Positions 4,902 through 23,433 of a DNA stretch of 64,000 bases are shown here, in pieces (position 1 is the first letter of the stretch; each line of letters begins with the position of its first letter). A model generated the notes under the pieces. That model ran no database searches. It had not been told where the DNA came from and saw nothing but the letters and a program-made list of their open reading frames with translations. Location: NCBI GenBank assembly GCA_964497535.1, contig CAZCCG010000002.1, forward strand, positions 169,297-233,296. The letters are read 5' to 3'. This DNA is from an uncultured Gammaproteobacteria bacterium (GTDB lineage Bacteria > Patescibacteriota > Microgenomatia > Levybacterales > UBA12049). Position numbers and translations under genes: made by a program.

Positions 4902-4960
4902 AGTGCCTCATTTTTTTTGATCTCTTGCATACTATGCTTTCTTCATTTATACTGCTTCTA

Positions 4961-5080
4961 ACATCAAGAGTGATAGATGAAATGCTATCCGGCAACCGAA
5001 GTATTTACGGTGCCAGTTCCAAATAATTGGAGATGCGGCGAGAGCAAAATACCAAAACCTCTCGCATGAGAGGTTTTTTT
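4961..5080 (+). promoter_or_regulatory. SAM-I clan (S-box-like) riboswitch leader of metK with terminator/SD-sequestering expression platform
   Basis: Conserved S-box strings ATCAAGAG (P1 5'), GATGAAA…CCGGCAACC, GGTGCCAgTTCC and AGATG (P1 3', pairs with CATC). It is followed by hairpin CCTCTC-gcat-GAGAGG (5058–5073) plus T7 (5074–5080) abutting the metK ATG. An upstream CGAGAG could form an antiterminator. Confidence 0.7.
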
Positions 5081-6184
5081 ATGAGAAATTATTTTACTTC
5101 AGAGTCCGTATGCGCAGGACATCCTGACAAAGTATGTGACCAAATAAGTGACGCAATTGTTGATGATGTTCTCTCCCAAGATAAAAACGGTAAAGTCGCA
5201 ATAGAAACACTTGTTACCCAAAACCAAATCACAATAGCCGGAGAAATAAAGGCTCATGCCAAACCTAATTTTAAAAAAATAGCCCGACGAGAAATAAAAA
5301 GACTCGGTTATACACTCCCAAAATTAAAATTTACTTCAAACTCTCCCATTTCTTTGTTTGTCCATGCACAGTCACCCGAAATCGCAGTTGGTGTTGAAAA
5401 AAAAGGAGCCGGGGATCAGGGAATGATGTTTGGGTATGCCTGTAAAGAAACCAAAGAATACATGCCGCTTCCGATTATGCTTGCCCATGCCCTCTGCCGC
5501 CAAATTGATACCCTGAGAGAGTCAAAAAAACTGCCATATTTGCTACCGGATGGCAAAAGCCAGGTAACAGTTCGCTATCAAAAAGGCAAACCCGTTGCAG
5601 TAGATCGGGTAATACTGGCTGTTCCCCATAGTGATATGGTACAACTCCAGCAAGTAAAGCACGACATTTACAAACAGGTTGTTATACCGATACTGCAAGA
5701 ATACGGATACAATACACATGAAAAAGATGTCCTGGTAAATGGGACGGGTGTCTGGCATTTCTCCGGTCCCGCAGCTGATACAGGAGTAACAGGCAGAAAG
5801 ATTGTTGTGGATACCTATGGAGGGTATGCCAGAGTTGGGGGAGGAGCCTTTTCAGGAAAAGACCCAACCAAAGTTGATCGCTCAGGAGCATATGCTGCCA
5901 GGTATTTAGCAAAAAATATTGTTGCTCATGGATTGGCGCAGCAGGCAGAGGTACGACTGGCATATGTTATTGGTAGAGCAGAACCGCTCATGCAAGAAGT
6001 TGAAACATTTGATACCAATACCGTTTCACAAAAAGCACTCATAGAATTTATGAAAAAACTCCTCGATTGTTCGGTAGAAGGCATTCTCAAGGGTCTTGCG
6101 TTACAACAACCTCTTTACCTACCTTGCGCAGCATACGGACATTTTGGAAGGTCACAGTTCCCCTGGGAAAAAATCGTGAAATAA
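5081..6184 (+). CDS. metK: S-adenosylmethionine synthetase
   Basis: MRNYFTSESVCAGHPDKVCDQISDAIVD matches the MetK N-terminus; the GAGDQG motif is present; the ATG at 5081 is preferred over the ORF-track TTG at 5027, which would read through the riboswitch. Confidence 0.9.
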   Translation: MRNYFTSESVCAGHPDKVCDQISDAIVDDVLSQDKNGKVAIETLVTQNQITIAGEIKAHAKPNFKKIARREIKRLGYTLPKLKFTSNSPISLFVHAQSPEIAVGVEKKGAGDQGMMFGYACKETKEYMPLPIMLAHALCRQIDTLRESKKLPYLLPDGKSQVTVRYQKGKPVAVDRVILAVPHSDMVQLQQVKHDIYKQVVIPILQEYGYNTHEKDVLVNGTGVWHFSGPAADTGVTGRKIVVDTYGGYARVGGGAFSGKDPTKVDRSGAYAARYLAKNIVAHGLAQQAEVRLAYVIGRAEPLMQEVETFDTNTVSQKALIEFMKKLLDCSVEGILKGLALQQPLYLPCAAYGHFGRSQFPWEKIVK

Positions 6185-10519: not shown

Positions 10520-10669
10520 AGAACCATATCATACCAAAAACAACCTGAAAAAATCCTGAGGAAAATGGAATACAATTTGGGATATCAAATATAAACTTAC
10601 ACACAAAGATTATAAGAAAAAATTAAAGGGGTGCTTCTTTTGAAACACCCCAAGAGGTTGTGTTAGGCT

Positions 10670-10870
10670 TTACAACGGATGCCCGAAGAAACAATGGGTA
10701 ACTTGCCAATGGTCTTGTTTACGGTACTTAGTACCACAATTGTTACACTGCAAGTACTGGAACGAGCATGAGGCATCGCCTGCACCAAGCGTTCCATGGC
10801 ACGTAATACCATATCCATCAACAAGTCCTTTGCACTTCTCGCATTGGTACGCCAGTACCGAAAGAGACAT
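10670..10870 (-). CDS. Small Cys-rich (zinc-ribbon-like) hypothetical protein inside the GC-rich islet; alternative overlapping frame 10663..10941
   Basis: CEKCKG...CNNCG paired Cys motifs; local GC elevated; weak call. Confidence 0.25.
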   Translation of the reverse strand: MSLSVLAYQCEKCKGLVDGYGITCHGTLGAGDASCSFQYLQCNNCGTKYRKQDHWQVTHCFFGHPL

Positions 10871-10913
10871 ATGCTGATGCTCCTTTCCCCAAACATCTGT
10901 TCATCAATCTCGC

Positions 10914-11096
10914 TTACCGAAGATAAATCTGAAACCTCCATGATACTAACATCCCCACAACTGGAGACGCTGCAAATACGAATGCTCCTGCTTGATGACC
11001 ATAGAATTGACCAACAAGAAGGGATGACGCCATAGCCAGGGAAACCGCTATCATCAGGAGCATAACTTTCCTTTGAGACCGTTTTTGTTCAGTCAT
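10914..11096 (-). CDS. Small hydrophobic hypothetical protein (60 aa)
   Basis: One or two predicted TM segments; in the GC-rich islet; weak call. Confidence 0.25.
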   Translation of the reverse strand: MTEQKRSQRKVMLLMIAVSLAMASSLLVGQFYGHQAGAFVFAASPVVGMLVSWRFQIYLR

Positions 11097-11250
11097 CGTC
11101 CTTCTCCCTTCAGTTCTTCGACAAACCGAGATACCCTATCAACGTACAAATCGAATTATACGAAAGCCATACAGATAATACAAATTGAGGAATTTTGTAG
11201 AATTACTTTAGCTCTATATGCCTTTATATTTCTAAGAAGACAAAAAATAG

Positions 11251-11290
11251 GGGTGGTCGAGTCCGCCAGCTGGCGGAGACTCGACCACCC
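11251..11290 (-). terminator. Intrinsic terminator-like hairpin (13-bp perfect stem GGGTGGTCGAGTC/GACTCGACCACCC with palindromic loop CGCCAGCTGGCG), U-run on minus strand
   Basis: Read directly; lies 22 nt downstream of minus-strand ORF 11312..11605 and is followed on the minus strand by CTATTTTTTG. Confidence 0.6.
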
Positions 11291-11311
11291 ACAGTGAAAG
11301 AAACTGAGAAG

Positions 11312-11605
11312 TCAATCACGAGGAGCTGCTGCAGCAAGCTCTGAGAGGCTCACTGCATACGCTGTACGACGCGCATTATGGTATGAGACGTATTTGTCGT
11401 TGATCTCCCTCTCGAACTCGAGAAACGACTGGATGACAGACTGTCCTCCAGATGAGCTATGAGGTACTTCTACCTTTACCAGAAGCAACTCACCAGTATC
11501 AAGCTGCTCCGCAAGATAGAAGTAATCCCCCCAATCCAAAGGACGAGTTCCTGGCAACCTTCCCGGGTCAAGCTCACGCCGTACCCATTGGCACGTTTTG
11601 GACAC
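11312..11605 (-). CDS. Hypothetical protein (97 aa), GC-rich islet
   Basis: ORF with higher GC than the host background and a downstream terminator; no homology recognised. Confidence 0.4.
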   Translation of the reverse strand: MSKTCQWVRRELDPGRLPGTRPLDWGDYFYLAEQLDTGELLLVKVEVPHSSSGGQSVIQSFLEFEREINDKYVSYHNARRTAYAVSLSELAAAAPRD

Positions 11606-11760
11606 AACTACTCTCCTTCCTCTTCTTGACAGAAAATCCTATCAGATTCTCTCAACCGGAGGCATTGTACTAAAAAAAGAAGATAAAAACAAATTGAAGA
11701 TTATTTATAAGAAAAGGGGGGTACAAGTCTGCACCCCCCGAAAAACGGAATAGGATACTT

Positions 11761-12225
11761 CTAATTAAGTTGTATCGAGTACTCCTCAAGCAGTGCATCC
11801 CCATCGAGGACATAGCGGGTATCAGCCCATGTGTCTCTTGTTTCAAGAGGACATGAGAGTGTTCGGCCTTCTCCTGCAAGGACCAGACTACACTTCTCAA
11901 GCCGGTTACGTCCCACATACACGAAGTGATCGAAGCATACCTGCAAGACAACCCCGTTTTCTGGCGCGTTCTGGTCGATGCTTGCGATGTACCCTACGCC
12001 ATAACGAGTCAGTAATCTCTCTTGCCATGGTTCCATCAATAGCTCGTGGGGGTAGAACCGGTATCCCCGCAATGCCCGATTGATAAGCCACACTGGTGCT
12101 ATTTGCTGGACAAGGATTACTCCCAACCAGTATGGAACAAAGCCAAAGACTTTGAGCACGTTCACGCTGCCTCCTCTTGAGTGATATACCAACGCTACCG
12201 CCATTTTATAAAAATTACTGTGCAA
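11761..12225 (-). CDS. Hypothetical protein (154 aa), GC-rich islet
   Basis: Local GC ~50% versus ~35% background; no homology recognised. Confidence 0.4.
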   Translation of the reverse strand: MHSNFYKMAVALVYHSRGGSVNVLKVFGFVPYWLGVILVQQIAPVWLINRALRGYRFYPHELLMEPWQERLLTRYGVGYIASIDQNAPENGVVLQVCFDHFVYVGRNRLEKCSLVLAGEGRTLSCPLETRDTWADTRYVLDGDALLEEYSIQLN

Positions 12226-12263
12226 TTACAAATAAAGGAAATTATACAAAGGATTGAAGAGAG

Positions 12264-13463
12264 TTAATTTTTTTGCCGGAGAAAGGCGGGGATATCCCAT
12301 ACATCTTCGTCTTCTTTAATATTCGTATCTTCCTGAGAGAAGTTTGCAGGACTTGGAGGAGTCTGCTGTGGTTGCTGCGTCTGTTGCGGCTCAGGTTGCT
12401 GATGAGTTATCGGAGTCACCGGCGGCTGGTATCTATGTTGTTCTTCCTGATGTTCTTCTTTCATCTCAGGACCACGGGGAATAGACATAAATTGCTGAAG
12501 TTTTTGTTTGTTCTGGTCAAATCCTGTGGCAACCACGGTAATTTTGAGCTGGTCATGCATTGCCTCGTTAATTGTTGCTCCAAAAATAATATTTGCATCA
12601 GGATCAGCACTTGCTGAAATAATTTTGGCTGCTTCATCAACTTCATTCATCGTCAAATCCGGCCCTCCAATAATATTAAAGAGTACTCCGCGTGCTCCGG
12701 TCATTGATATTTCCAGAAGCGGAGAAGAAATAGCTGACCGGGCTGCTGCTTGTGCACGATTTTCGCCAAATCCGGTACCAATTCCCATCAATGCCGAACC
12801 TGCATCAGTCATAATAGTTCGTACATCGGCAAAATCGACGTTGATCAGTCCCGGCATGGTGATCAAATCTGAAATTCCCTGTACACCCTGGGTCAACACG
12901 GAATCCGCTACTTTGAATGCTTCAAGAAGCGACATTTTTTTATCTACAACATCCAGAATTCTTTGGTTGGGAATAACAATCAGGGTATCTACTTTATCTT
13001 TGAGGTTTTCAATCCCATCTTCCGCCTGGACAAAACGGCGAGTTCCTTCAAAAGAAAAAGGCTTGGTAACAACCGCTACGGTAAGCGCTCCAACTTCTTT
13101 TGCAATTCGTGCTACAACTGGAGTAGCCCCTGTACCGGTGCCGCCACCCATTCCTGCTGTCAAAAAGACCATATCTGATCCCTCAAGCATGTCTTTAATT
13201 TTCTCTTCTGATTCTTCAGCAGCTTGGCGTCCCATTTCAGGATTGCCCCCGGATCCAAGTCCTTTGGTTAATTGATCACCAATTTGAAGTTTGCCATCTG
13301 CGGGACATCCCAGAAGTGCTTGAGCATCAGTATTGACTGCTACGAAATCAACGCCATTAATACTTGCCGAGGAAATCATTGAAGCGAGAGCATTGTTGCC
13401 ACCTCCACCAATACCCACAACCCTGATTTTTGCAAAATTTGAAGTAGTTGGTTTGATCAGCAT
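12264..13463 (-). CDS. ftsZ: Cell division protein FtsZ
   Basis: [22 protein letters not shown] tubulin signature, C-terminal DIPAFLR tail. Confidence 0.95.
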
Positions 13464-13518
13464 AGGAGTGATAGCATCCTAGCAGATACAACTGGAGATT
13501 GCAAGTATACTTCATAGC

Positions 13519-14385
13519 TTAGGTATATAGTATTCGTGCATTGTTATCTGCGGATAATGACATTGTAAGATGTTCTAATGACATCCATATAATTCCTCTT
13601 TCTGAGTCAATTACCTGGATATCCATTTCACCATTTGTCTGTACCTGATATCCTGCAACACAAACTGAATGTCTCCCAACTACATCTTTATCCAAATAAA
13701 TATGATTCGACATAACAGCTAAAAGAACTGCTTGGGTATCTAAGATATTTTTTATGAGTTTTGCATTCGCACCAATCTTAGACTCATTTATTTCACTTGT
13801 TGATCCGATATAGCTTATCGTTGTGGCAAACTCTCCGTGTGATGAAACATATTCTTTCCCTACTATTCGTATGGGTTGCGTAGTTTTGTGAAGCCCAGGT
13901 AAAGAACTAATTTGAACTTCTTCATACCTTTGCCTGGCACTCATTTCTTCTAATTCTTCATATGTCATCCCTCCTCTTTTTGATTTTTCTATGTCAATTG
14001 CAAAGTTAAGCAAATCCATAGTAAATTGTGTTTTTGGACGGATTCCTAAAGCCTTCATACCGCTGGCAAATGACCAGGGTAAGCAAGTTGGTTCTATTCC
14101 CTGGTAATACCATCCCCCGGTATAAACGTGGGATGAGGCAGGACAGGCTGTAAGAGTACGGTTAGAATCAGCCAGACTTCGTTCAAAAACAGCTAGATCC
14201 TGTGCAGATGCTTTTAATTCCAGAGGGGGCAATGGATGATCAAGAAGTCGACTTACTGTCTGCCTATCATAATCAAATCCATACCCTGTCCCAATAAGAT
14301 CAGATCCAAACAAACGGATATTTGGTTTTTCTTGGGCACCAACCTCAAAAAAGTAGGATATATCTGCTTCCCGAGCAATAGCCAT
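13519..14385 (-). CDS. Hypothetical protein between ftsA and ftsZ; possible papain-fold cysteine peptidase
   Basis: 288 aa; Cys context PTCLPWSFASG and His context GRHSVCVAGYQ resemble C1/C39-like catalytic dyad motifs; speculative. Confidence 0.4.
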   Translation of the reverse strand: MAIAREADISYFFEVGAQEKPNIRLFGSDLIGTGYGFDYDRQTVSRLLDHPLPPLELKASAQDLAVFERSLADSNRTLTACPASSHVYTGGWYYQGIEPTCLPWSFASGMKALGIRPKTQFTMDLLNFAIDIEKSKRGGMTYEELEEMSARQRYEEVQISSLPGLHKTTQPIRIVGKEYVSSHGEFATTISYIGSTSEINESKIGANAKLIKNILDTQAVLLAVMSNHIYLDKDVVGRHSVCVAGYQVQTNGEMDIQVIDSERGIIWMSLEHLTMSLSADNNARILYT

Positions 14386-14418
14386 AAAACGAGGTATTAT
14401 ACCATGGAAATTCTATCG

Positions 14419-15738
14419 TTAGGGGATGAAGGATTTCAGAAGATTAACAACTTTTTTAACCATCTTTCCGCTTGGCATACCTCCAAGTCGTGGCATAGAA
14501 AATCCGAGAGGAAGTGACTTACCACCGCCGGTATCTTGTTTTGCCCCGTAAATCAAAAGCCCGACTCCTGCTGAAAAAGCAGGGCTATTGATCTCATCAA
14601 TCAAACCCTTTAGACCGGTTGGCATACCGACTCGTACCGGCATCGCAAGCATTCGCTTGGCAGATTCTGAAATTCCTACTGTCAATGATCCCCCACCTGT
14701 TATTACTAACCCTGCAGGAGTTTGACCTCCATATCCGCTCTTTTTAATCTCAAGTCCAATCATTGTGAATATTTCATTTAGTCGTGGGCGTATAATACCG
14801 TCAACCAATGTTTTTCGGGAAACCTTGTGTAATTCTTCAGGAAGTTCCAATACACCCAAATCTACTTCATCACTGATGGATGCCAAATCAGCCCGCTTCA
14901 CGGTACGACCCATCATCGTTTCTTCTGTATCTTCCGGCATGACAATTTTTTTCTGTGGCTCAGACAAAAATAATTTGATTTTCTCAGCACTTTCCAGAGA
15001 AAGCCGTAAACCGATTGCCAAATCATTGGTAATATGACGAGCACCAATAGGCAGAACTGAAGAATATGCAATTGCTCCATCAACATAAATAGAGATATCG
15101 GTAGTTCCCGCTCCCATATCTACCAAAACTACCCCTAATTCCTTCTCAGTATCGGTAACCACGGCAAGACTACTGGAATATCCACTAAATACGATACTAT
15201 CCACATCTACTCCTACTTGTGACAGTGCTTTTTCAAGATTACGCAAAGCAGTACTGCTTGCTGTTATGATATGGGTATCTACCTCCAACCGTACCCCTGT
15301 CATGCCAATCGGATCTTTGATACCATCTTGCCCATCTACCGAATAGTTACGCGGCAGTACGTGGATAATTTCTCGTGTTGAAGGCAATGAAATGGCTCGA
15401 GCAGCATCTATAACGCGTTCAACATCGTTACTGATAATCTCTCCATCAGGCTTGGAAACTGCTACAACTCCATGAGAATTTTGGCTTTCAATATGACCGC
15501 CACCGATAGAAGCCGTAACATGAGCCACAGAATAACCGGCCATTCGCTCCGCAGCTTCGATTGAGGAATTTATTGCAGCTACTGCTTCTTCAATATCAAC
15601 GATTTGTCCTTTTTTTATTCCTAAGGCTCGAGTCTCTGCAACTCCCAAAACATTGATTTCTTCATCAATTTTGGCAATTATCGTAACGATTTTCGAGGTC
15701 CCAATATCAACTCCAACAACTATCTTTCCATCTGTCAT
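14419..15738 (-). CDS. ftsA: Cell division protein FtsA
   Basis: Actin-fold N-terminus IVVGVDIGTSKIVTIIA; 439 aa; position upstream of ftsZ. Confidence 0.92.
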   Translation of the reverse strand: MTDGKIVVGVDIGTSKIVTIIAKIDEEINVLGVAETRALGIKKGQIVDIEEAVAAINSSIEAAERMAGYSVAHVTASIGGGHIESQNSHGVVAVSKPDGEIISNDVERVIDAARAISLPSTREIIHVLPRNYSVDGQDGIKDPIGMTGVRLEVDTHIITASSTALRNLEKALSQVGVDVDSIVFSGYSSSLAVVTDTEKELGVVLVDMGAGTTDISIYVDGAIAYSSVLPIGARHITNDLAIGLRLSLESAEKIKLFLSEPQKKIVMPEDTEETMMGRTVKRADLASISDEVDLGVLELPEELHKVSRKTLVDGIIRPRLNEIFTMIGLEIKKSGYGGQTPAGLVITGGGSLTVGISESAKRMLAMPVRVGMPTGLKGLIDEINSPAFSAGVGLLIYGAKQDTGGGKSLPLGFSMPRLGGMPSGKMVKKVVNLLKSFIP

Positions 15739-15760: not shown

Positions 15761-16201
15761 CTATTTGCGGTACACGATCACAGGATTATCAAACCTAAAA
15801 TCCAGGCTTGAAAACCGCTTTCCCTCTATTGTAAGCCGTGACAGGACAAATTGTAAAGAGGATATTTGTTGTGCAATCGGTTTTTTGGAAGAAAAATATA
15901 TGTATTCTCCATCTTTGAACTTTATAAGATACGAGTAGTCTTCTGCAATGTAAACCCCTTCATAGTCAATATGAGCTTTCCGCAGTCCCTCTTCTATTGA
16001 AAGTGTGTTGTTAGACCGCTGAGTAATAAACTTTCCCAAAGGCAACGGGCTAATAAAGTCAGGAGCCTGGTTTAACAAAATACCCACGACTACCATTACA
16101 AAACTGAAAAGAAATATAACAGCACTTACCGAAAGAAAAAATAACCGTAGTTTACGGCGTGATCGATTCCGTACCTTCCGCGGATTATGAGCAGATTTCA
16201 T
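15761..16201 (-). CDS. ftsQ: FtsQ/DivIB-like cell division protein (short form, single TM + POTRA-like region)
   Basis: Basic N-terminus, one TM, 146 aa; call based mainly on synteny between murG and ftsA. Confidence 0.5.
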   Translation of the reverse strand: MKSAHNPRKVRNRSRRKLRLFFLSVSAVIFLFSFVMVVVGILLNQAPDFISPLPLGKFITQRSNNTLSIEEGLRKAHIDYEGVYIAEDYSYLIKFKDGEYIYFSSKKPIAQQISSLQFVLSRLTIEGKRFSSLDFRFDNPVIVYRK

Positions 16202-19554: not shown

Positions 19555-20604
19555 TCAGTAGCCTCGTTTTATACGCCAAATGGTTTCAATGGTGTAATTC
19601 TTCCAATAGAGGGGAGATGTCGGTAAATCCTGAGCATGAATTAAATTTACTCGTCTTCCGCCAAATCCTGTTTTAAATAACGTTAAACCGTGCCATGGAT
19701 GCTTTGGTTTTTCAGGCGGAACTACCCCCCAAAAATTATAGATAGTTTTCCCCTGCCTTTTTGCTTCTTTGATTGCTTCCCATTGAATTAGGTATGCCCC
19801 GGGAATATCTTTATATTCATCGGCTGAAGCACCATGATGATAGACTGCCTGATTTCCATAGTAAATGACTAAAGCACCGGCAATAATGTTAGAATTATGC
19901 CGGGCTACAAATAACTTTGCCATTTTATTGTTGACGAAAATATCAAATTCTTCTCTCAAACCCCGATGAGGAATAAAATTATGACGCTTGGAAGTCCGCT
20001 CATACAGATCCATAAACTCTTCAAAATCTTTGGCTGTCCCGGCACTGCTTATCTCAACACCCAGGTTTTGTGCACGTCTTACCAGATACCTCGTTGTTTT
20101 TCGCATTCCTGCCATAATTTCTTGCTCATCCTGACTCAGATCCAATACCCAGGCATTTTCAGCATCCATATTGTGAACTGGTGCATTTCTAAATCCTCGT
20201 TTTACAAAAAAGGGCATATCTGCATGTTCTTCTTCAATAACAGGAGATATACGAATGAATTCAATCTTTTTATGCCGACATCGATTTTTAAGGTCTTCCA
20301 AAAGTACATCAAAACTGTTTTCAAAATGGGTTAACACTGGTCCGTGACGAAGATGGAAATAATGAGCACGTTTTGCTTTTATCTCAACGAGTTGGGCAAT
20401 ACCTACCAGTGTATTTTCATTAAAGATTCCAATACGATTAACCTCATGACCTACTCTTTTTTGAACCTCTCCCCATTTCCACGACTGAAAAAAAGGAGTA
20501 TAAGCGATGTTACTCCTCAACAAAAATTGTTCCCAAATGGTTTCATTTGATATATCGCGAACTTTTAGCATATGACTGTAATAATGATACAATTTTTTTG
20601 ACAT
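19555..20604 (-). CDS. FemAB-family peptidoglycan interpeptide-bridge aminoacyltransferase (FemX-like)
   Basis: FemAB-type N-terminus (FFQSWKWGEVQK), ~350 aa, acyltransferase fold pattern. Confidence 0.7.
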   Translation of the reverse strand: MSKKLYHYYSHMLKVRDISNETIWEQFLLRSNIAYTPFFQSWKWGEVQKRVGHEVNRIGIFNENTLVGIAQLVEIKAKRAHYFHLRHGPVLTHFENSFDVLLEDLKNRCRHKKIEFIRISPVIEEEHADMPFFVKRGFRNAPVHNMDAENAWVLDLSQDEQEIMAGMRKTTRYLVRRAQNLGVEISSAGTAKDFEEFMDLYERTSKRHNFIPHRGLREEFDIFVNNKMAKLFVARHNSNIIAGALVIYYGNQAVYHHGASADEYKDIPGAYLIQWEAIKEAKRQGKTIYNFWGVVPPEKPKHPWHGLTLFKTGFGGRRVNLIHAQDLPTSPLYWKNYTIETIWRIKRGY

Positions 20605-21793
20605 CCTGTGTGGACATTCGGGGATAAGTAGGAAGATTAACGATAGTTACAGCAAGATGCCTTGCTTGAGGTGTCAAAGCCGGATAAAAATGAATTTTTT
20701 CAAATTGTACCCCTTTGGGATCAATAATATTGGCATACCACGTACCCAAATATATATTATTTTTTTTGAAAAGCTCCAATAGATCCTCCCGATGATGACA
20801 CAGGATAGGAAATCTCAAGTAAGGTATCTCTTGAGTAGATGGTAATTCAAATGAAGAACCGGCAAGTTCCTTTTGGTATTGAGTGGAGATTTGAATTCTT
20901 TTTTTATTATATTCAGCAATTTTGCGTAATTGAGACAGAGCAAGGATACACAAAGCATTCGGCATTTTTCTCACAAATAGCTCACTTCGATTTGAGCGTT
21001 TTTCACCTATAGTTACCGGCATCGAGAGCAAATGCAGACGTTGTAATACTACCAGTATTACTTTGCCCAACGATAAAACCGTATAGAAGGGTAAAATAAT
21101 GCCAAAAGCAAGTGGATGCAGAAGCTGTTGAAAAATCCAAAAAAATCCCGGGTATTCTTGTTTTTTCTGAAATTGTCGAAGCGTATTCCCCAATGTTTTA
21201 TCATTTGTAATTGCCATTCCTCCAAATACACTGGAAAAAGCCTTATCTCTCCCAAAACTAAAAAAAGCTGCATCTCCAAACGTTCCTAATTTTTTACCAT
21301 CATATGTTCCCCCTACAGTATGCGCACAATCTTCAATAATAAGCAGGTTATGTTTCTTGGCAATTTTTTTGATCTGATCCATTTGGGAGGGAATTCCAAA
21401 GGTATGCTGTACCAAAATTGCTTTTGTCTTTGATGTAATGTTTTTTTCAATAGTATCGGGATTGATTGTCCCATCAAAAAGGACATCTACATATACCGGC
21501 TTTGCGCCTGCCCAAATGATCGCATTTGGCACGGCAACACAAGTAAATGCTTGCAACAACACTTCGTCTTTCTCTCCAATTTCCATTGCTTTTAATAAAC
21601 TATAAAAAGCAGACCGACCGCTATTAAATGATATTGCATATGACATGGAGAAATAGTTACGAAACCACTGTTCAAGTTTGCCTATAGAATCACCTGAAAA
21701 ATAATTCCAGGGACGGAGAATAGCTCCGAATGTTACTGCTATATCATCAGGTTGTGTGTTGGGGGATAAACCAGGAGCTATAGGAAATGCCAT
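20543..21793 (-). CDS. DegT/DnrJ/EryC1/StrS-family PLP-dependent sugar aminotransferase
   Basis: AFTCVAVPNAIIWAGAKPVYVDV and SFGRDKAFSS (PLP-lysine region) typical of the DegT family. Confidence 0.7.
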   Translation of the reverse strand: MAFPIAPGLSPNTQPDDIAVTFGAILRPWNYFSGDSIGKLEQWFRNYFSMSYAISFNSGRSAFYSLLKAMEIGEKDEVLLQAFTCVAVPNAIIWAGAKPVYVDVLFDGTINPDTIEKNITSKTKAILVQHTFGIPSQMDQIKKIAKKHNLLIIEDCAHTVGGTYDGKKLGTFGDAAFFSFGRDKAFSSVFGGMAITNDKTLGNTLRQFQKKQEYPGFFWIFQQLLHPLAFGIILPFYTVLSLGKVILVVLQRLHLLSMPVTIGEKRSNRSELFVRKMPNALCILALSQLRKIAEYNKKRIQISTQYQKELAGSSFELPSTQEIPYLRFPILCHHREDLLELFKKNNIYLGTWYANIIDPKGVQFEKIHFYPALTPQARHLAVTIVNLPTYPRMSTQDVKKIVSLLQSYAKSSRYIK

Positions 21794-21795
21794 AG

Positions 21796-23433
21796 TTATG
21801 CTTTCCTCACTTTCGTCACAATAACGCGGGGAATACCTTTTCCCATCATCACACTAATATCACCTTTTTTTGTATTGTTTACAACAAAATCAGTAATCTC
21901 CTCTATTGTTCCCGTTTTCACTTTACATTCCCCTTTTCCATCAGTAATTCCCTGAGTAATTTCTTTGTAAAAGTTTTTATTGACGAGAAAGAGATAATCG
22001 CATATAACAGAGATTGCTTTTGCAACTCTATAGTGTTCTTCTTTTCCTTTTTTCCCAAGTTCAATCATTGGTTCCAATATGAAAATTCTCTTGCCTTTAT
22101 ATTGCTTTATATACTCAAGCGTTGCAATCACACTATCAGGATTTGCATTAAATGTATTATCTAAAATATGGGATCCGTTTGAAAGTTCACTTCGAACCAT
22201 CGTATGAGGCAGCGGCGTTAGCTTGGATACGGCTGTTTTTATTTCCATATCGGACATTCCCAAATAGTCAGCTAGATAAATAGCGGGAAGAATATTTTCA
22301 ACCATATGGAGCCCAATCAATGATGTTTTTAAATGCAGTATTTTTTTTCTCAACTGCACATCAAAGTGAGTTCCATCCTCCTGGCCAGAGATATTATAGG
22401 CAACAATGTCCCCCAATTTCCCTACATTTGTTAATACTGTCTTTTTTGCCGATGATATAACTCTCCGATAGAGGACTTTTTTCTTTGTTGTATTTTTGTA
22501 TAGTTGAAAAACACGTTCGTTATTTCCGTTAAAAAGTGCCAAACCGTTTCTAGGAAGCGATTCAATTAATTCATATTTGGTTTTTTCTATATTTTCAATA
22601 CTTCCAAACAATGATAAATGTTGGCCTGCTATTGCTGTAAGTACACCGATTTTAGGACGGGCAATTGCACACAGCTCCGCGATTTCTCCTTTTTTATACG
22701 CTCCCATTTCTGCCACAAATATCTGAGTATTATTTTTTAATCCTTTCAAAATAGTATATGCTACCCCGATTGGAGTATTATCGGAATACTTTGTTTTTAA
22801 TACCTCGAATTTATGGGAGAGAACCTGGGCAATAAATTCCTTGGTAGAACTTTTTCCATAGCTGCCGGTAACTCCAATTACTAACAACTTTTCACTTTTT
22901 AAAATTTTTTTGGTTGCCCGCTCAATCTGGTAATCCTTGTAAAGCACCGTCGGCAAGGATACCGCAAAAACAACACATCCAACAACAAAAGGCAAAAGAA
23001 TATCCAAAATCATTAACCATACAAATGGATCTGTAGTAAGAGGAATGAGAAACAATGTAGTATAAATGTAAATTACTATCCCAATTAAAAGAAGCGCTTT
23101 TGTAGTAAATTTCGGACGCCGGAATGTATGAGTTAACAGTTCGTGGATAACCGCAACTCCTTCAATGAGTAATACAAGAGTAACAACTATTTGATAGAGT
23201 ACGAGAAAAAGTGGGTTATATACTGCAAATGCAAATCCTAATATCAGAATCCATTTGAAAATCGCATAAAATGAAAAAAGAATACTCTTACCACTGTGCG
23301 TTTCTGAAAGCTCTGCAAATAGCCGATCATACCGGTATTCCCGCCGTTGCCATAAAGACACCCAAAAAAAGGTGTTGCGTACTACCCATAAGAGAAAACT
23401 GACTGCGGCAATATAATATAAAACAGTAATCAT
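21796..23433 (-). CDS. murF: Mur ligase family protein (MurF-like D-Ala-D-Ala adding enzyme) with ~170-aa N-terminal polytopic membrane domain
   Basis: C-terminal two-thirds has the Mur ligase P-loop VIGVTGSYGKSSTKEF; the N-terminal ~170 aa contain 4–5 hydrophobic helices. Confidence 0.7.
   Translation of the reverse strand: MITVLYYIAAVSFLLWVVRNTFFWVSLWQRREYRYDRLFAELSETHSGKSILFSFYAIFKWILILGFAFAVYNPLFLVLYQIVVTLVLLIEGVAVIHELLTHTFRRPKFTTKALLLIGIVIYIYTTLFLIPLTTDPFVWLMILDILLPFVVGCVVFAVSLPTVLYKDYQIERATKKILKSEKLLVIGVTGSYGKSSTKEFIAQVLSHKFEVLKTKYSDNTPIGVAYTILKGLKNNTQIFVAEMGAYKKGEIAELCAIARPKIGVLTAIAGQHLSLFGSIENIEKTKYELIESLPRNGLALFNGNNERVFQLYKNTTKKKVLYRRVISSAKKTVLTNVGKLGDIVAYNISGQEDGTHFDVQLRKKILHLKTSLIGLHMVENILPAIYLADYLGMSDMEIKTAVSKLTPLPHTMVRSELSNGSHILDNTFNANPDSVIATLEYIKQYKGKRIFILEPMIELGKKGKEEHYRVAKAISVICDYLFLVNKNFYKEITQGITDGKGECKVKTGTIEEITDFVVNNTKKGDISVMMGKGIPRVIVTKVRKA

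What the first reader, a model, noticed from the sequence alone, without database searches (positions are those of the whole stretch)
13519..14385. Unknown 288-aa protein wedged between ftsA and ftsZ, with papain-like Cys/His motifs
ftsA and ftsZ are usually adjacent. An inserted gene here is a candidate lineage-specific divisome component. The motifs PTCLPWSFASG (Cys) and GRHSVCVAGYQ (His) are reminiscent of C1/C39-type cysteine peptidases, so it could be a divisome-associated protease or transglutaminase-like enzyme.
Basis: partly seen in the sequence, partly recalled or inferred. Interest (0 to 1): 0.5.

Follow-up and report, generated by a model that had tools for sequence, protein, structure and literature searches.

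The report
Accessory papain-fold peptidase between ftsA/ftsZ
The gene between ftsA and ftsZ is real and encodes a papain-fold cysteine peptidase from a small unannotated family, but no sampled relative has it there, so it looks like an accessory gene in a permissive spacer, not a cell-division component.

Summary
A 288-aa ORF (13519-14385, minus strand) lies between ftsA and ftsZ in the dcw cluster of a Levybacteria (CPR) genome, and both quoted motifs are present.

The divisome reading is not supported:
- None of 80 related ftsA loci has a family member within 10 kb.
- 64 of 71 informative loci have ftsA and ftsZ adjacent.
- Thirteen further homologue contexts lack ftsA/ftsZ. They include toxin-antitoxin and restriction islands, glycan clusters, and one site just downstream of a class A PBP.

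In Levybacteria, ftsZ keeps its own conserved promoter-like motif directly upstream. X sits between the ftsA stop codon and that motif. Six of 25 Levybacteria loci carry other, unrelated cargo at the same place.

Verdict: a new member of a known enzyme superfamily, with unknown substrate and modest interest.

The parts
13519..14385 (-). Gene X: a 288-aa stand-alone papain-fold (C39_2-like) cysteine peptidase with no signal peptide.
14083..14085 (-). Codon of Cys101, the predicted nucleophile. It is the first residue of helix 101-112 in the model.
   Evidence: Invariant in 81 sequences. Aligns with Cys25 of cathepsin K in the profile alignment. Codon checked. Secondary structure.
14101..14103 (-). 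Codon of Gln95, the predicted oxyanion-hole residue, six residues before the Cys as in papain and C39.
   Evidence: At least 90% conserved. Aligns with Gln19 of cathepsin K. Codon checked.
13669..13671 (-). Codon of His239, the predicted general base, on strand 238-248 of the model.
   Evidence: At least 90% conserved. Aligns with the His of the conserved 'HA..VGY' motif in GtgE, dionain-1 and cathepsin K; that this His is the catalytic one in those enzymes is my own knowledge. Codon checked.
13606..13608 (-). Codon of Asp260, the predicted third triad residue, at the end of the next strand (254-260).
   Evidence: Invariant in 81 sequences. Strand assignment. Codon checked.
13476..13504 (-). 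Conserved promoter-like motif for ftsZ: TTGCAA, 17 nt, then TAGGAT preceded by TGc. The -10 element ends 12 nt before the ftsZ ATG.
   Evidence: Sequence. The same motif is upstream of ftsZ in every Levybacteria-type locus where a full-length ftsZ start was matched, including cargo-bearing L005, L019 and L045. It is absent in the Gottesmanbacteria, Chisholmbacteria and Chloroflexota loci, with one exception (L049). Promoter function is inferred.
14396..14404 (-). Candidate own promoter of X: an extended -10 element, TGGTATAAT, ending 10 nt before the X ATG.
   Evidence: Read from the sequence. Inference only: the generic promoter scan did not exceed chance in this region.
14419..15738 (-). ftsA, the upstream neighbour. 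Its stop codon is 33 nt before the X start.
   Evidence: Pfam FtsA and SHS2_FTSA. 72% identity to the best Levybacteria FtsA.
12264..13463 (-). ftsZ, the downstream neighbour. Its start is 55 nt after the X stop.
   Evidence: Pfam Tubulin and FtsZ_C. 68-74% identity to Levybacteria FtsZ over full-length matches.

Best explanation
X is a soluble thiol hydrolase of the papain-like superfamily (clan CA) with no signal peptide. It belongs to a small family that no curated model captures and that is distantly related to Peptidase_C39_2.

Proposed mechanism (inferred from conserved residues and fold):
- Cys101, at the N-terminus of a helix, attacks a peptide or isopeptide carbonyl.
- His239, on the facing beta-strand, acts as the base and is oriented by Asp260.
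- Gln95 supplies the oxyanion hole.

Its nearest structural relatives are the cell-wall peptide-cleaving domains of viral lysins (PeiR, mycobacteriophage Lysin A) and C39 peptidases. The most likely substrate class is therefore a short peptide or a peptidoglycan-type stem peptide. This substrate inference has roughly 0.3 probability on its own.

Its position between ftsA and ftsZ is best explained by insertion, not by divisome function. In Levybacteria, ftsZ carries its own conserved promoter-like element immediately upstream. DNA can therefore be inserted between the ftsA stop codon and that element without uncoupling ftsZ expression. X occupies exactly that slot, possibly with its own extended -10 promoter, and other Levybacteria carry unrelated cargo in the same slot.

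Shown: the gene, the family, the conserved Q/C/H/D residues, the fold, the absence from relatives' ftsA loci, the conserved motif and the variable cargo. Inferred: catalysis, substrate, promoter activity and the insertion history.
For: Family and catalytic residues:
- 123 homologues were found.
- C101 and D260 are invariant, and Q95 and H239 are at least 90% conserved across 81 sequences.
- The profile alignment places Q95/C101/H239 on the Gln/Cys/His of cathepsin K, and H239 on the conserved 'HA..VGY' His of GtgE and dionain.
- 29 of 81 members give weak Peptidase_C39_2 hits, the best at 7.6e-6.

Fold:
- The AF2 model has pLDDT 83.4 and pTM 0.82.
- Foldseek against PDB gives the same set.
- Foldseek against BFVD has mycobacteriophage Lysin A and a Gordonia endolysin among the top six hits, plus an AvrRpt2-like protease.
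- Only 2 of 127 family proteins have a TM-like segment.

Insertion model:
- ftsA and ftsZ are adjacent (gap <=334 nt) in 64 of 71 informative loci.
- There is no family member within +-10 kb of ftsA in the 80 relatives.
- The TTGCAA-N17-TGnTAGGAT motif is conserved before ftsZ in Levybacteria loci, including cargo-bearing ones, and lies in the X|ftsZ spacer here.
- Cargo is present in 6 of 25 Levybacteria loci against 1 of 46 others (Fisher p=0.0065). There are at least four unrelated cargo types.
- There is no terminator-like site on the minus strand between ftsA and ftsZ.
Against: - No biochemical data exist.
- I could not read the model coordinates, so the Cys-His geometry is unchecked.
- X itself gives no Pfam or NCBIfam hit, so family assignment rests on structure and weak profile matches.
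- Similarity to lysins is at the fold level (10-16% identity), and other clan CA enzymes with different chemistry score nearly as well.
- X's composition (GC 0.39, GC3 0.27) is not foreign to the window, and no repeats or target-site duplication flank it. Insertion is therefore inferred from comparison only.
- The nearest sampled relative has only 72% FtsA identity, so conservation of ftsA-X-ftsZ within the genus is untested.
- Three of 14 contexts are next to cell-wall or division genes. This could mean a real envelope link that the accessory reading underrates.
Confidence: 0.6

Rival explanations
1. X is a lineage-specific divisome-associated protease or regulator. It would be co-expressed with ftsA and ftsZ and act on FtsA, FtsZ (for example its long Q/P-rich C-terminal linker) or another division protein.
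For: X is co-oriented with ftsA and ftsZ with 33-nt and 55-nt gaps, and there is no terminator-like hairpin on that strand. The catalytic residues are intact. One homologue lies convergent to a tsaE/M23(EnvC-like)/FtsX/FtsE block, and another lies 48 nt downstream of a class A PBP.
Against: The arrangement is absent from all 80 related ftsA loci. None of the 13 other family contexts contains ftsA or ftsZ. The slot holds unrelated cargo in other Levybacteria. ftsZ keeps its own conserved promoter-like motif downstream of X.
Confidence: 0.1
2. X is an accessory conflict protein: a papain-fold toxin or effector protease like GtgE, AvrRpt2 or CdiA-CT. It would be delivered to, or used against, a host or competitor cell of this episymbiotic CPR bacterium, and landed in the ftsA|ftsZ slot by chance.
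Against: No adjacent conserved immunity or partner gene appears in 14 contexts. There is no PADLOC hit for X, and only one unrelated weak hit among 15 members. No secretion-system gene lies next to it here. No PHROG, phage or plasmid match was found. Other homologues sit inside housekeeping-type operons.
Confidence: 0.2
3. X is a non-proteolytic papain-fold enzyme: a gamma-glutamyl or acyl transferase or an amide synthase, like phytochelatin-synthase-like Alr0975, BtrH, CtaG, AziU3 or CcbD. It would use the same Cys-His-Asp triad through an acyl-enzyme intermediate.
Against: Peptidases outrank these hits in every search. The only recurrent Pfam signal is Peptidase_C39_2. No biosynthetic gene cluster surrounds X or most homologues.
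Confidence: 0.08

Closest known systems
Peptidase_C39_2 (Pfam PF13529) / stand-alone C39-like peptidases (e.g. PDB 3erv from Bacillus anthracis)
   Different: X itself does not hit the model at E<=1. The three relatives whose scores were listed fall below the 24-bit cut-off. X has a conserved N-terminal extension of about 85 aa and a variable insert of about 40 aa between the Cys and His halves.
C39 bacteriocin-processing peptidase domains of ABC transporters (PCAT1, ComA, LahT-type)
   Different: X is stand-alone and not fused to an ABC transporter. No transporter or double-glycine peptide gene lies next to it in the contexts examined.
Pseudomurein endoisopeptidase PeiR/PeiW/PeiP (MEROPS C71) and peptidase domains of mycobacteriophage Lysin A / Gordonia endolysins
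   Different: Identity is only 12-14%. X has no cell-wall-binding repeats. X is chromosomal and not in a phage or lysis cassette. Activity on cell-wall peptides is untested.
GtgE (Salmonella T3SS effector protease) and AvrRpt2 (C70)
   Different: The E-value is not significant. The hosts, secretion systems and targets are unrelated.
CPR-C4 (PMC9108980), a CPR-wide cysteine protease of unknown role
   Same: It is a precedent: a conserved soluble cysteine protease family in CPR bacteria whose gene neighbourhood gives no functional clue.

Membership tests
Papain-like cysteine peptidase superfamily (clan CA) | Alpha+beta papain fold: an N-terminal helical lobe carrying the Cys, and a C-terminal beta-sheet lobe carrying the His. 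| tested here: met
Papain-like cysteine peptidase superfamily (clan CA) | Catalytic Cys at a helix N-terminus, His on a beta-strand, Asn/Asp on the following strand, and Gln about 6 residues before the Cys. | tested here: met
   C101 and D260 are invariant, and Q95 and H239 are at least 90% conserved. C101 starts helix 101-112, H239 lies in strand 238-248 and D260 ends strand 254-260. The residues align with Q19/C25/H162 of cathepsin K (numbering from my own knowledge).
Papain-like cysteine peptidase superfamily (clan CA) | Thiol-dependent hydrolytic activity. | not testable with these tools
   This needs an enzyme assay with C101A and H239A controls.
Pfam PF13529 Peptidase_C39_2 | Score at or above the curated gathering cut-off (24 bits). 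| tested here: not met
   X gives no hit at E<=1. 29 of 81 relatives hit at E<0.1 (best 7.6e-6). The three whose scores were listed reach 16.9-19.9 bits, below 24.
C39 bacteriocin-processing peptidase (PF03412 type) | N-terminal domain of, or encoded next to, an ABC exporter with double-glycine leader peptide substrates. | tested here: not met
   X is stand-alone. No bacteriocin-type ABC exporter or leader-peptide gene was annotated next to it in the window or in the 13 other contexts. The only nearby ABC component is FtsE/FtsX in one convergent context.
C1 papain family | Secreted zymogen with a signal peptide and prodomain, and Asn as the third catalytic residue. | tested here: not met
   125 of 127 family members lack a hydrophobic N-terminal segment. 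The third residue is an invariant Asp. There is no Peptidase_C1 Pfam hit.
Transglutaminase-like superfamily (PF01841) | Match to the Transglut_core profile. | tested here: not met
Pseudomurein endoisopeptidase (C71; PeiW/PeiP/PeiR) | C71 catalytic domain with cell-wall (pseudomurein)-binding repeats, in a viral lysis context. | tested here: not met
Divisome component | Conserved genomic linkage with ftsA/ftsZ (or other division genes) across related genomes. | tested here: not met
   0 of 80 related ftsA loci carry a family member within +-10 kb. 0 of 13 other family contexts contain ftsA or ftsZ.
Divisome component | Physical interaction with division proteins, or localisation at the division site. 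| not testable with these tools
   This requires experiments.
CPR-C4 / vasohibin-like proteases | Protein of about 220 aa with a Cys61-His93-Leu(carbonyl) triad and a vasohibin-like fold (PMC9108980). | tested here: not met

The most novel reading that the evidence does not exclude
X and its family are cytoplasmic (iso)peptidases that edit peptidoglycan-type peptides from the inside. They might trim or proof-read stem or branch peptides on UDP-MurNAc or Lipid II precursors; this genome also encodes a FemAB-type branch-adding enzyme in the same cluster. Alternatively they might clip a division protein. Under this reading, the placement in the dcw cluster here, downstream of a class A PBP in another genome, and beside FtsEX/EnvC-like genes in a third, reflects a real and so far undescribed envelope-editing function in ultrasmall bacteria.
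Probability: 0.12. Interest if true: 0.6.

Novelty: new member of a known kind. Interest (0 to 1): 0.3.

Why it matters
A lineage-specific protease wired into ftsA-ftsZ would have been a rare handle on how uncultured CPR bacteria divide. The evidence points elsewhere. X is one more member of the large papain-like superfamily, in a small family that curated databases do not capture, with an unknown substrate.

Two by-products may be useful. First, the family definition (Q95/C101/H239/D260, no signal peptide, lysin-like fold) could seed a new profile model. Second, Levybacteria keep a dedicated conserved promoter-like element directly before ftsZ, and the spacer upstream of it has repeatedly accepted foreign or relocated genes. 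That is a caution against reading gene-order novelty in dcw clusters as functional coupling.

Tried and rejected
Searches on X that found nothing:
- Pfam, NCBIfam and PDB sequence searches gave nothing meaningful. The YrbL hit (0.013) and the RACK1 hit (0.42) are noise.
- The word-indexed homology search found only X itself. With the profile it added only P0070.
- Single-sequence AlphaFold failed (pLDDT 31). Only the run with the 81-sequence alignment was usable.
- PADLOC gave nothing for X and one weak unrelated hit among 15 members. PHROGs gave nothing for X and one weak unnamed-family hit. Phage and plasmid tblastn were negative.
- NCBIfam on all 81 members gave only one stray hit.

Searches limited by tools or caps:
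- The genome-contig scan with X found no relative. The second and last scan went to FtsA, so I could not survey whole genomes for family members.
The 5-sequence alignment found only 2 metagenome loci.
- The afdb50 library was unavailable.
- Model coordinates were not exposed, so active-site distances went unmeasured.

Ideas rejected:
- A compositional signature of foreign origin. X's GC and GC3 are within the window's range.
- Flanking direct or inverted repeats or a target-site duplication. Only short chance-level repeats were found.
- A conserved partner gene (immunity protein, substrate or transporter). None recurs across 14 contexts.
- Identity with the CPR-C4 protease family. The triad spacing and the fold differ.
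- A known structured RNA in the ORF-poor 1.7 kb downstream of ftsZ. There was no Rfam hit above threshold.

Full report
**1. Observation**

The ORF at 13519..14385 (minus strand, ATG start, 288 aa) exists as described. Pfam identifies the upstream gene (14419..15738) as FtsA and the downstream gene (12264..13463) as FtsZ, both with very strong scores.

All three genes are co-oriented within a typical dcw arrangement: mraY, ftsW, murG, a 146-aa membrane protein, ftsA, X, ftsZ. Further upstream lie a Mur ligase, a DegT aminotransferase and FemAB. The gaps are 33 nt (ftsA stop to X start) and 55 nt (X stop to ftsZ start). The two quoted motifs start at residues 99 and 237 and contain Cys101 and His239.

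FtsA relatives identify the organism as a Levybacteria (Microgenomates, Patescibacteria/CPR) bacterium. The best match has 72% identity.

**2. X is a real gene in a small unannotated family**

- X has no significant Pfam, NCBIfam or PDB sequence match.
- The word-indexed search found only X itself, on two Logan contigs from one study.
- The exhaustive HMMER search over 1.84 billion representatives found 123 proteins at E<=1e-3. The best non-self hit is 1.4e-43 at 37% identity.
- In an alignment of X with 80 of these, Cys101 and Asp260 are invariant. Gln95, His239, Gly245, Tyr246, Gln257, Gly264 and Glu271 are at least 90% conserved.
- Gln-x5-Cys, then His, then Asp on the next strand is the papain/C39 catalytic signature.
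- 29 of 81 members give weak Peptidase_C39_2 hits, the best at 7.6e-6. The three whose scores were listed are below the 24-bit cut-off. No NCBIfam model covers the family.
- A profile search of the PDB weakly aligns the His motif with the conserved 'HA..VGY' His of GtgE and dionain, and aligns Gln95/Cys101/His239 with the Gln/Cys/His of cathepsin K.

**3. Structure**

Single-sequence AlphaFold failed. With the 81-sequence alignment, the model reaches pLDDT 83.4 and pTM 0.82. Cys101 opens a helix, His239 lies on a strand, and Asp260 ends the following strand.

| Search | Main matches |
|---|---|
| Foldseek vs PDB | The same set |
| Foldseek vs viral models | Mycobacteriophage Lysin A (3e-6), an AvrRpt2-like protease, a Gordonia endolysin |

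Only 2 of 127 family proteins contain a TM-like hydrophobic segment, so the family is made as a soluble protein without a Sec signal. A transglutaminase assignment is not.

**4. The link to cell division**

I fetched 80 ftsA loci from species representatives and located ftsZ in each.

- In 64 of 71 informative loci, ftsA and ftsZ are adjacent, with gaps of 8-334 nt.
- tblastn with X found nothing in these loci.
- A profile search of all six-frame translations found no family member within +-10 kb of ftsA in any relative.

Thirteen further genomic contexts of family members contain neither ftsA nor ftsZ:

| Context |
|---|
| Beside a Y1 transposase and a restriction-modification system (Woesebacteria) |
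| Among hypothetical genes and dinB |
| Inside a glycosyltransferase/sugar-nucleotide cluster |
| Beside Fic and AbiEii toxins |
| Beside HigBA-like toxin-antitoxin genes and bAvd |
| Convergent to tsaE, an M23 EnvC-like gene, ftsX and ftsE |
| Near YafQ/RelB, DUF881 and murB |
| 48 nt downstream of a class A PBP, same strand |
| In diderm, non-CPR contigs beside a type I restriction-modification system or RND efflux genes |
| Two more unrelated neighbourhoods |

No partner gene recurs. A caveat remains. Three of 14 contexts, counting this window, touch peptidoglycan or division genes. Together with the lysin-like fold, that keeps a cell-envelope substrate plausible.

**5. Why X sits here**

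Aligning the ftsA-ftsZ spacers showed a conserved element upstream of ftsZ: TTGCAA, 17 nt, then TAGGAT preceded by TGn. The -10 element ends about 8-14 nt before the ftsZ ATG.

- It is present in every Levybacteria-type locus where a full-length ftsZ start was matched (L003-L028, L045, L077).
- Among the more distant Microgenomates, Saccharibacteria and Chloroflexota loci it was detected only in L049.
- In the window it occupies 13476-13504, inside the X|ftsZ spacer, starting 14 nt after the X stop codon.

X is therefore inserted exactly between the ftsA stop codon and the presumptive ftsZ promoter. X is itself preceded by a consensus extended -10 element, TGGTATAAT, 10 nt before its ATG. This is the same geometry as at ftsZ and suggests short-leader transcripts. 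No terminator-like hairpin lies on this strand between ftsA and ftsZ.

The same slot is occupied by other cargo in other Levybacteria:

| Locus | Cargo between ftsA and ftsZ |
|---|---|
| L005 | A 349-aa ORF on the opposite strand, no Pfam hit |
| L010 | A 1284-aa AAA_5 protein, a 1040-aa transglutaminase/VWA protein, and purN/purM-like genes |
| L013 | An S26 signal peptidase and a long ORF that runs off the contig |
| L019, L045, L048 | A 640-660-aa DUF676-like hydrolase (58-62% identical to each other) with a GNAT acetyltransferase and, in L019, a methyltransferase |

The cargo-bearing loci L005, L019 and L045 keep the motif next to ftsZ. Cargo occurs in 6 of 25 informative Levybacteria loci against 1 of 46 others (Fisher p=0.0065). 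This ignores phylogenetic non-independence; with X there are at least five distinct cargo types.

The simplest reading is that a dedicated ftsZ promoter makes the spacer upstream of it a permissive landing site. Against a recent transfer, X is compositionally unremarkable (GC 0.39, GC3 0.27) and has no flanking repeats.

**6. Mechanism and alternatives**

My best explanation has confidence 0.6. X is a soluble C39_2-like thiol (iso)peptidase that uses Cys101, His239, Asp260 and Gln95. Its most likely substrates are short peptides or peptidoglycan-type stem peptides. It is carried as an accessory gene in a permissive slot.

The rivals are:
- an effector or toxin-type protease of the conflict repertoire (0.2);
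- a true lineage-specific divisome protease (0.1);
- a papain-fold transferase or amide synthase (0.08).

PADLOC, PHROGs, phage and plasmid searches gave no support for a defence or mobile-element origin. The characterised CPR protease CPR-C4 is a different family with a different triad spacing and fold.

**7. Verdict**

- The fold interpretation is confirmed.
- The divisome interpretation is not supported.
- Novelty: a new, uncurated member family of a well-known enzyme superfamily.
- Interest is modest at 0.3. It comes mainly from the conserved ftsZ promoter-like motif and the insertion-slot pattern in Levybacteria, and from the residual possibility of a cytoplasmic cell-wall-peptide editing enzyme.

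Noticed in passing
window 13476-13504 (-); loci L003-L028, L045, L077 upstream of ftsZ: A Levybacteria-specific conserved promoter-like element lies before ftsZ: TTGCAA, 17 nt, then TGnTAGGAT. The -10 element ends only about 8-14 nt before the ATG, which suggests a near-leaderless ftsZ mRNA. The Gottesmanbacteria loci (L029-L036, L042) share a different motif (CTGCCCAGAAAGG-like) a few nt upstream of the ftsZ ATG.
   Followed up: partly
L005:1477-2519, L010:11290-21142, L013:11305-14400, L019:1554-5293, L045:9022-12629, L048:11287-21287, L078:11320-11850: The ftsA|ftsZ spacer carries unrelated cargo in several Levybacteria: an AAA_5 protein with a transglutaminase/VWA giant protein; a DUF676-like hydrolase with a GNAT and a methyltransferase; an S26 signal peptidase; and an unknown 349-aa ORF. 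Cargo is present in 6 of 25 Levybacteria loci against 1 of 46 others.
   Followed up: partly
window 10520-12263: The 1.7 kb downstream of ftsZ has higher GC (0.448 against 0.394 for the window). It holds only small minus-strand ORFs (154, 97, 92 and 60 aa) with no Pfam hit. It has no similarity in the 80 related loci and no Rfam hit above threshold. A 40-nt palindrome lies at about 11251-11290.
   Followed up: partly
window 4956-5061 (+): A SAM-I/IV riboswitch (Rfam RF01725, 44.2 bits) lies immediately upstream of the S-adenosylmethionine synthetase gene at about 5081-6184 on the plus strand.
   Followed up: no
window ~19555-23430 (-), from L001:953-4831: The dcw cluster of this genome includes a Mur ligase, a DegT/DnrJ-type aminotransferase and a FemAB-family peptidyltransferase upstream of mraY. 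This hints at a branched or modified peptidoglycan stem peptide.
   Followed up: no
L098, L100: More distant members of the X family (E about 1e-16) occur on contigs with outer-membrane beta-barrel, FeoAB, RND efflux and DUF1501 genes. These are diderm, non-CPR bacteria, so the family is not CPR-restricted.
   Followed up: no
window 15761-16201 (-): The 146-aa ORF between murG and ftsA, where ftsQ would be expected, has an N-terminal hydrophobic segment but no POTRA/FtsQ Pfam match. It may be a very reduced or divergent FtsQ/DivIB analogue.
   Followed up: no
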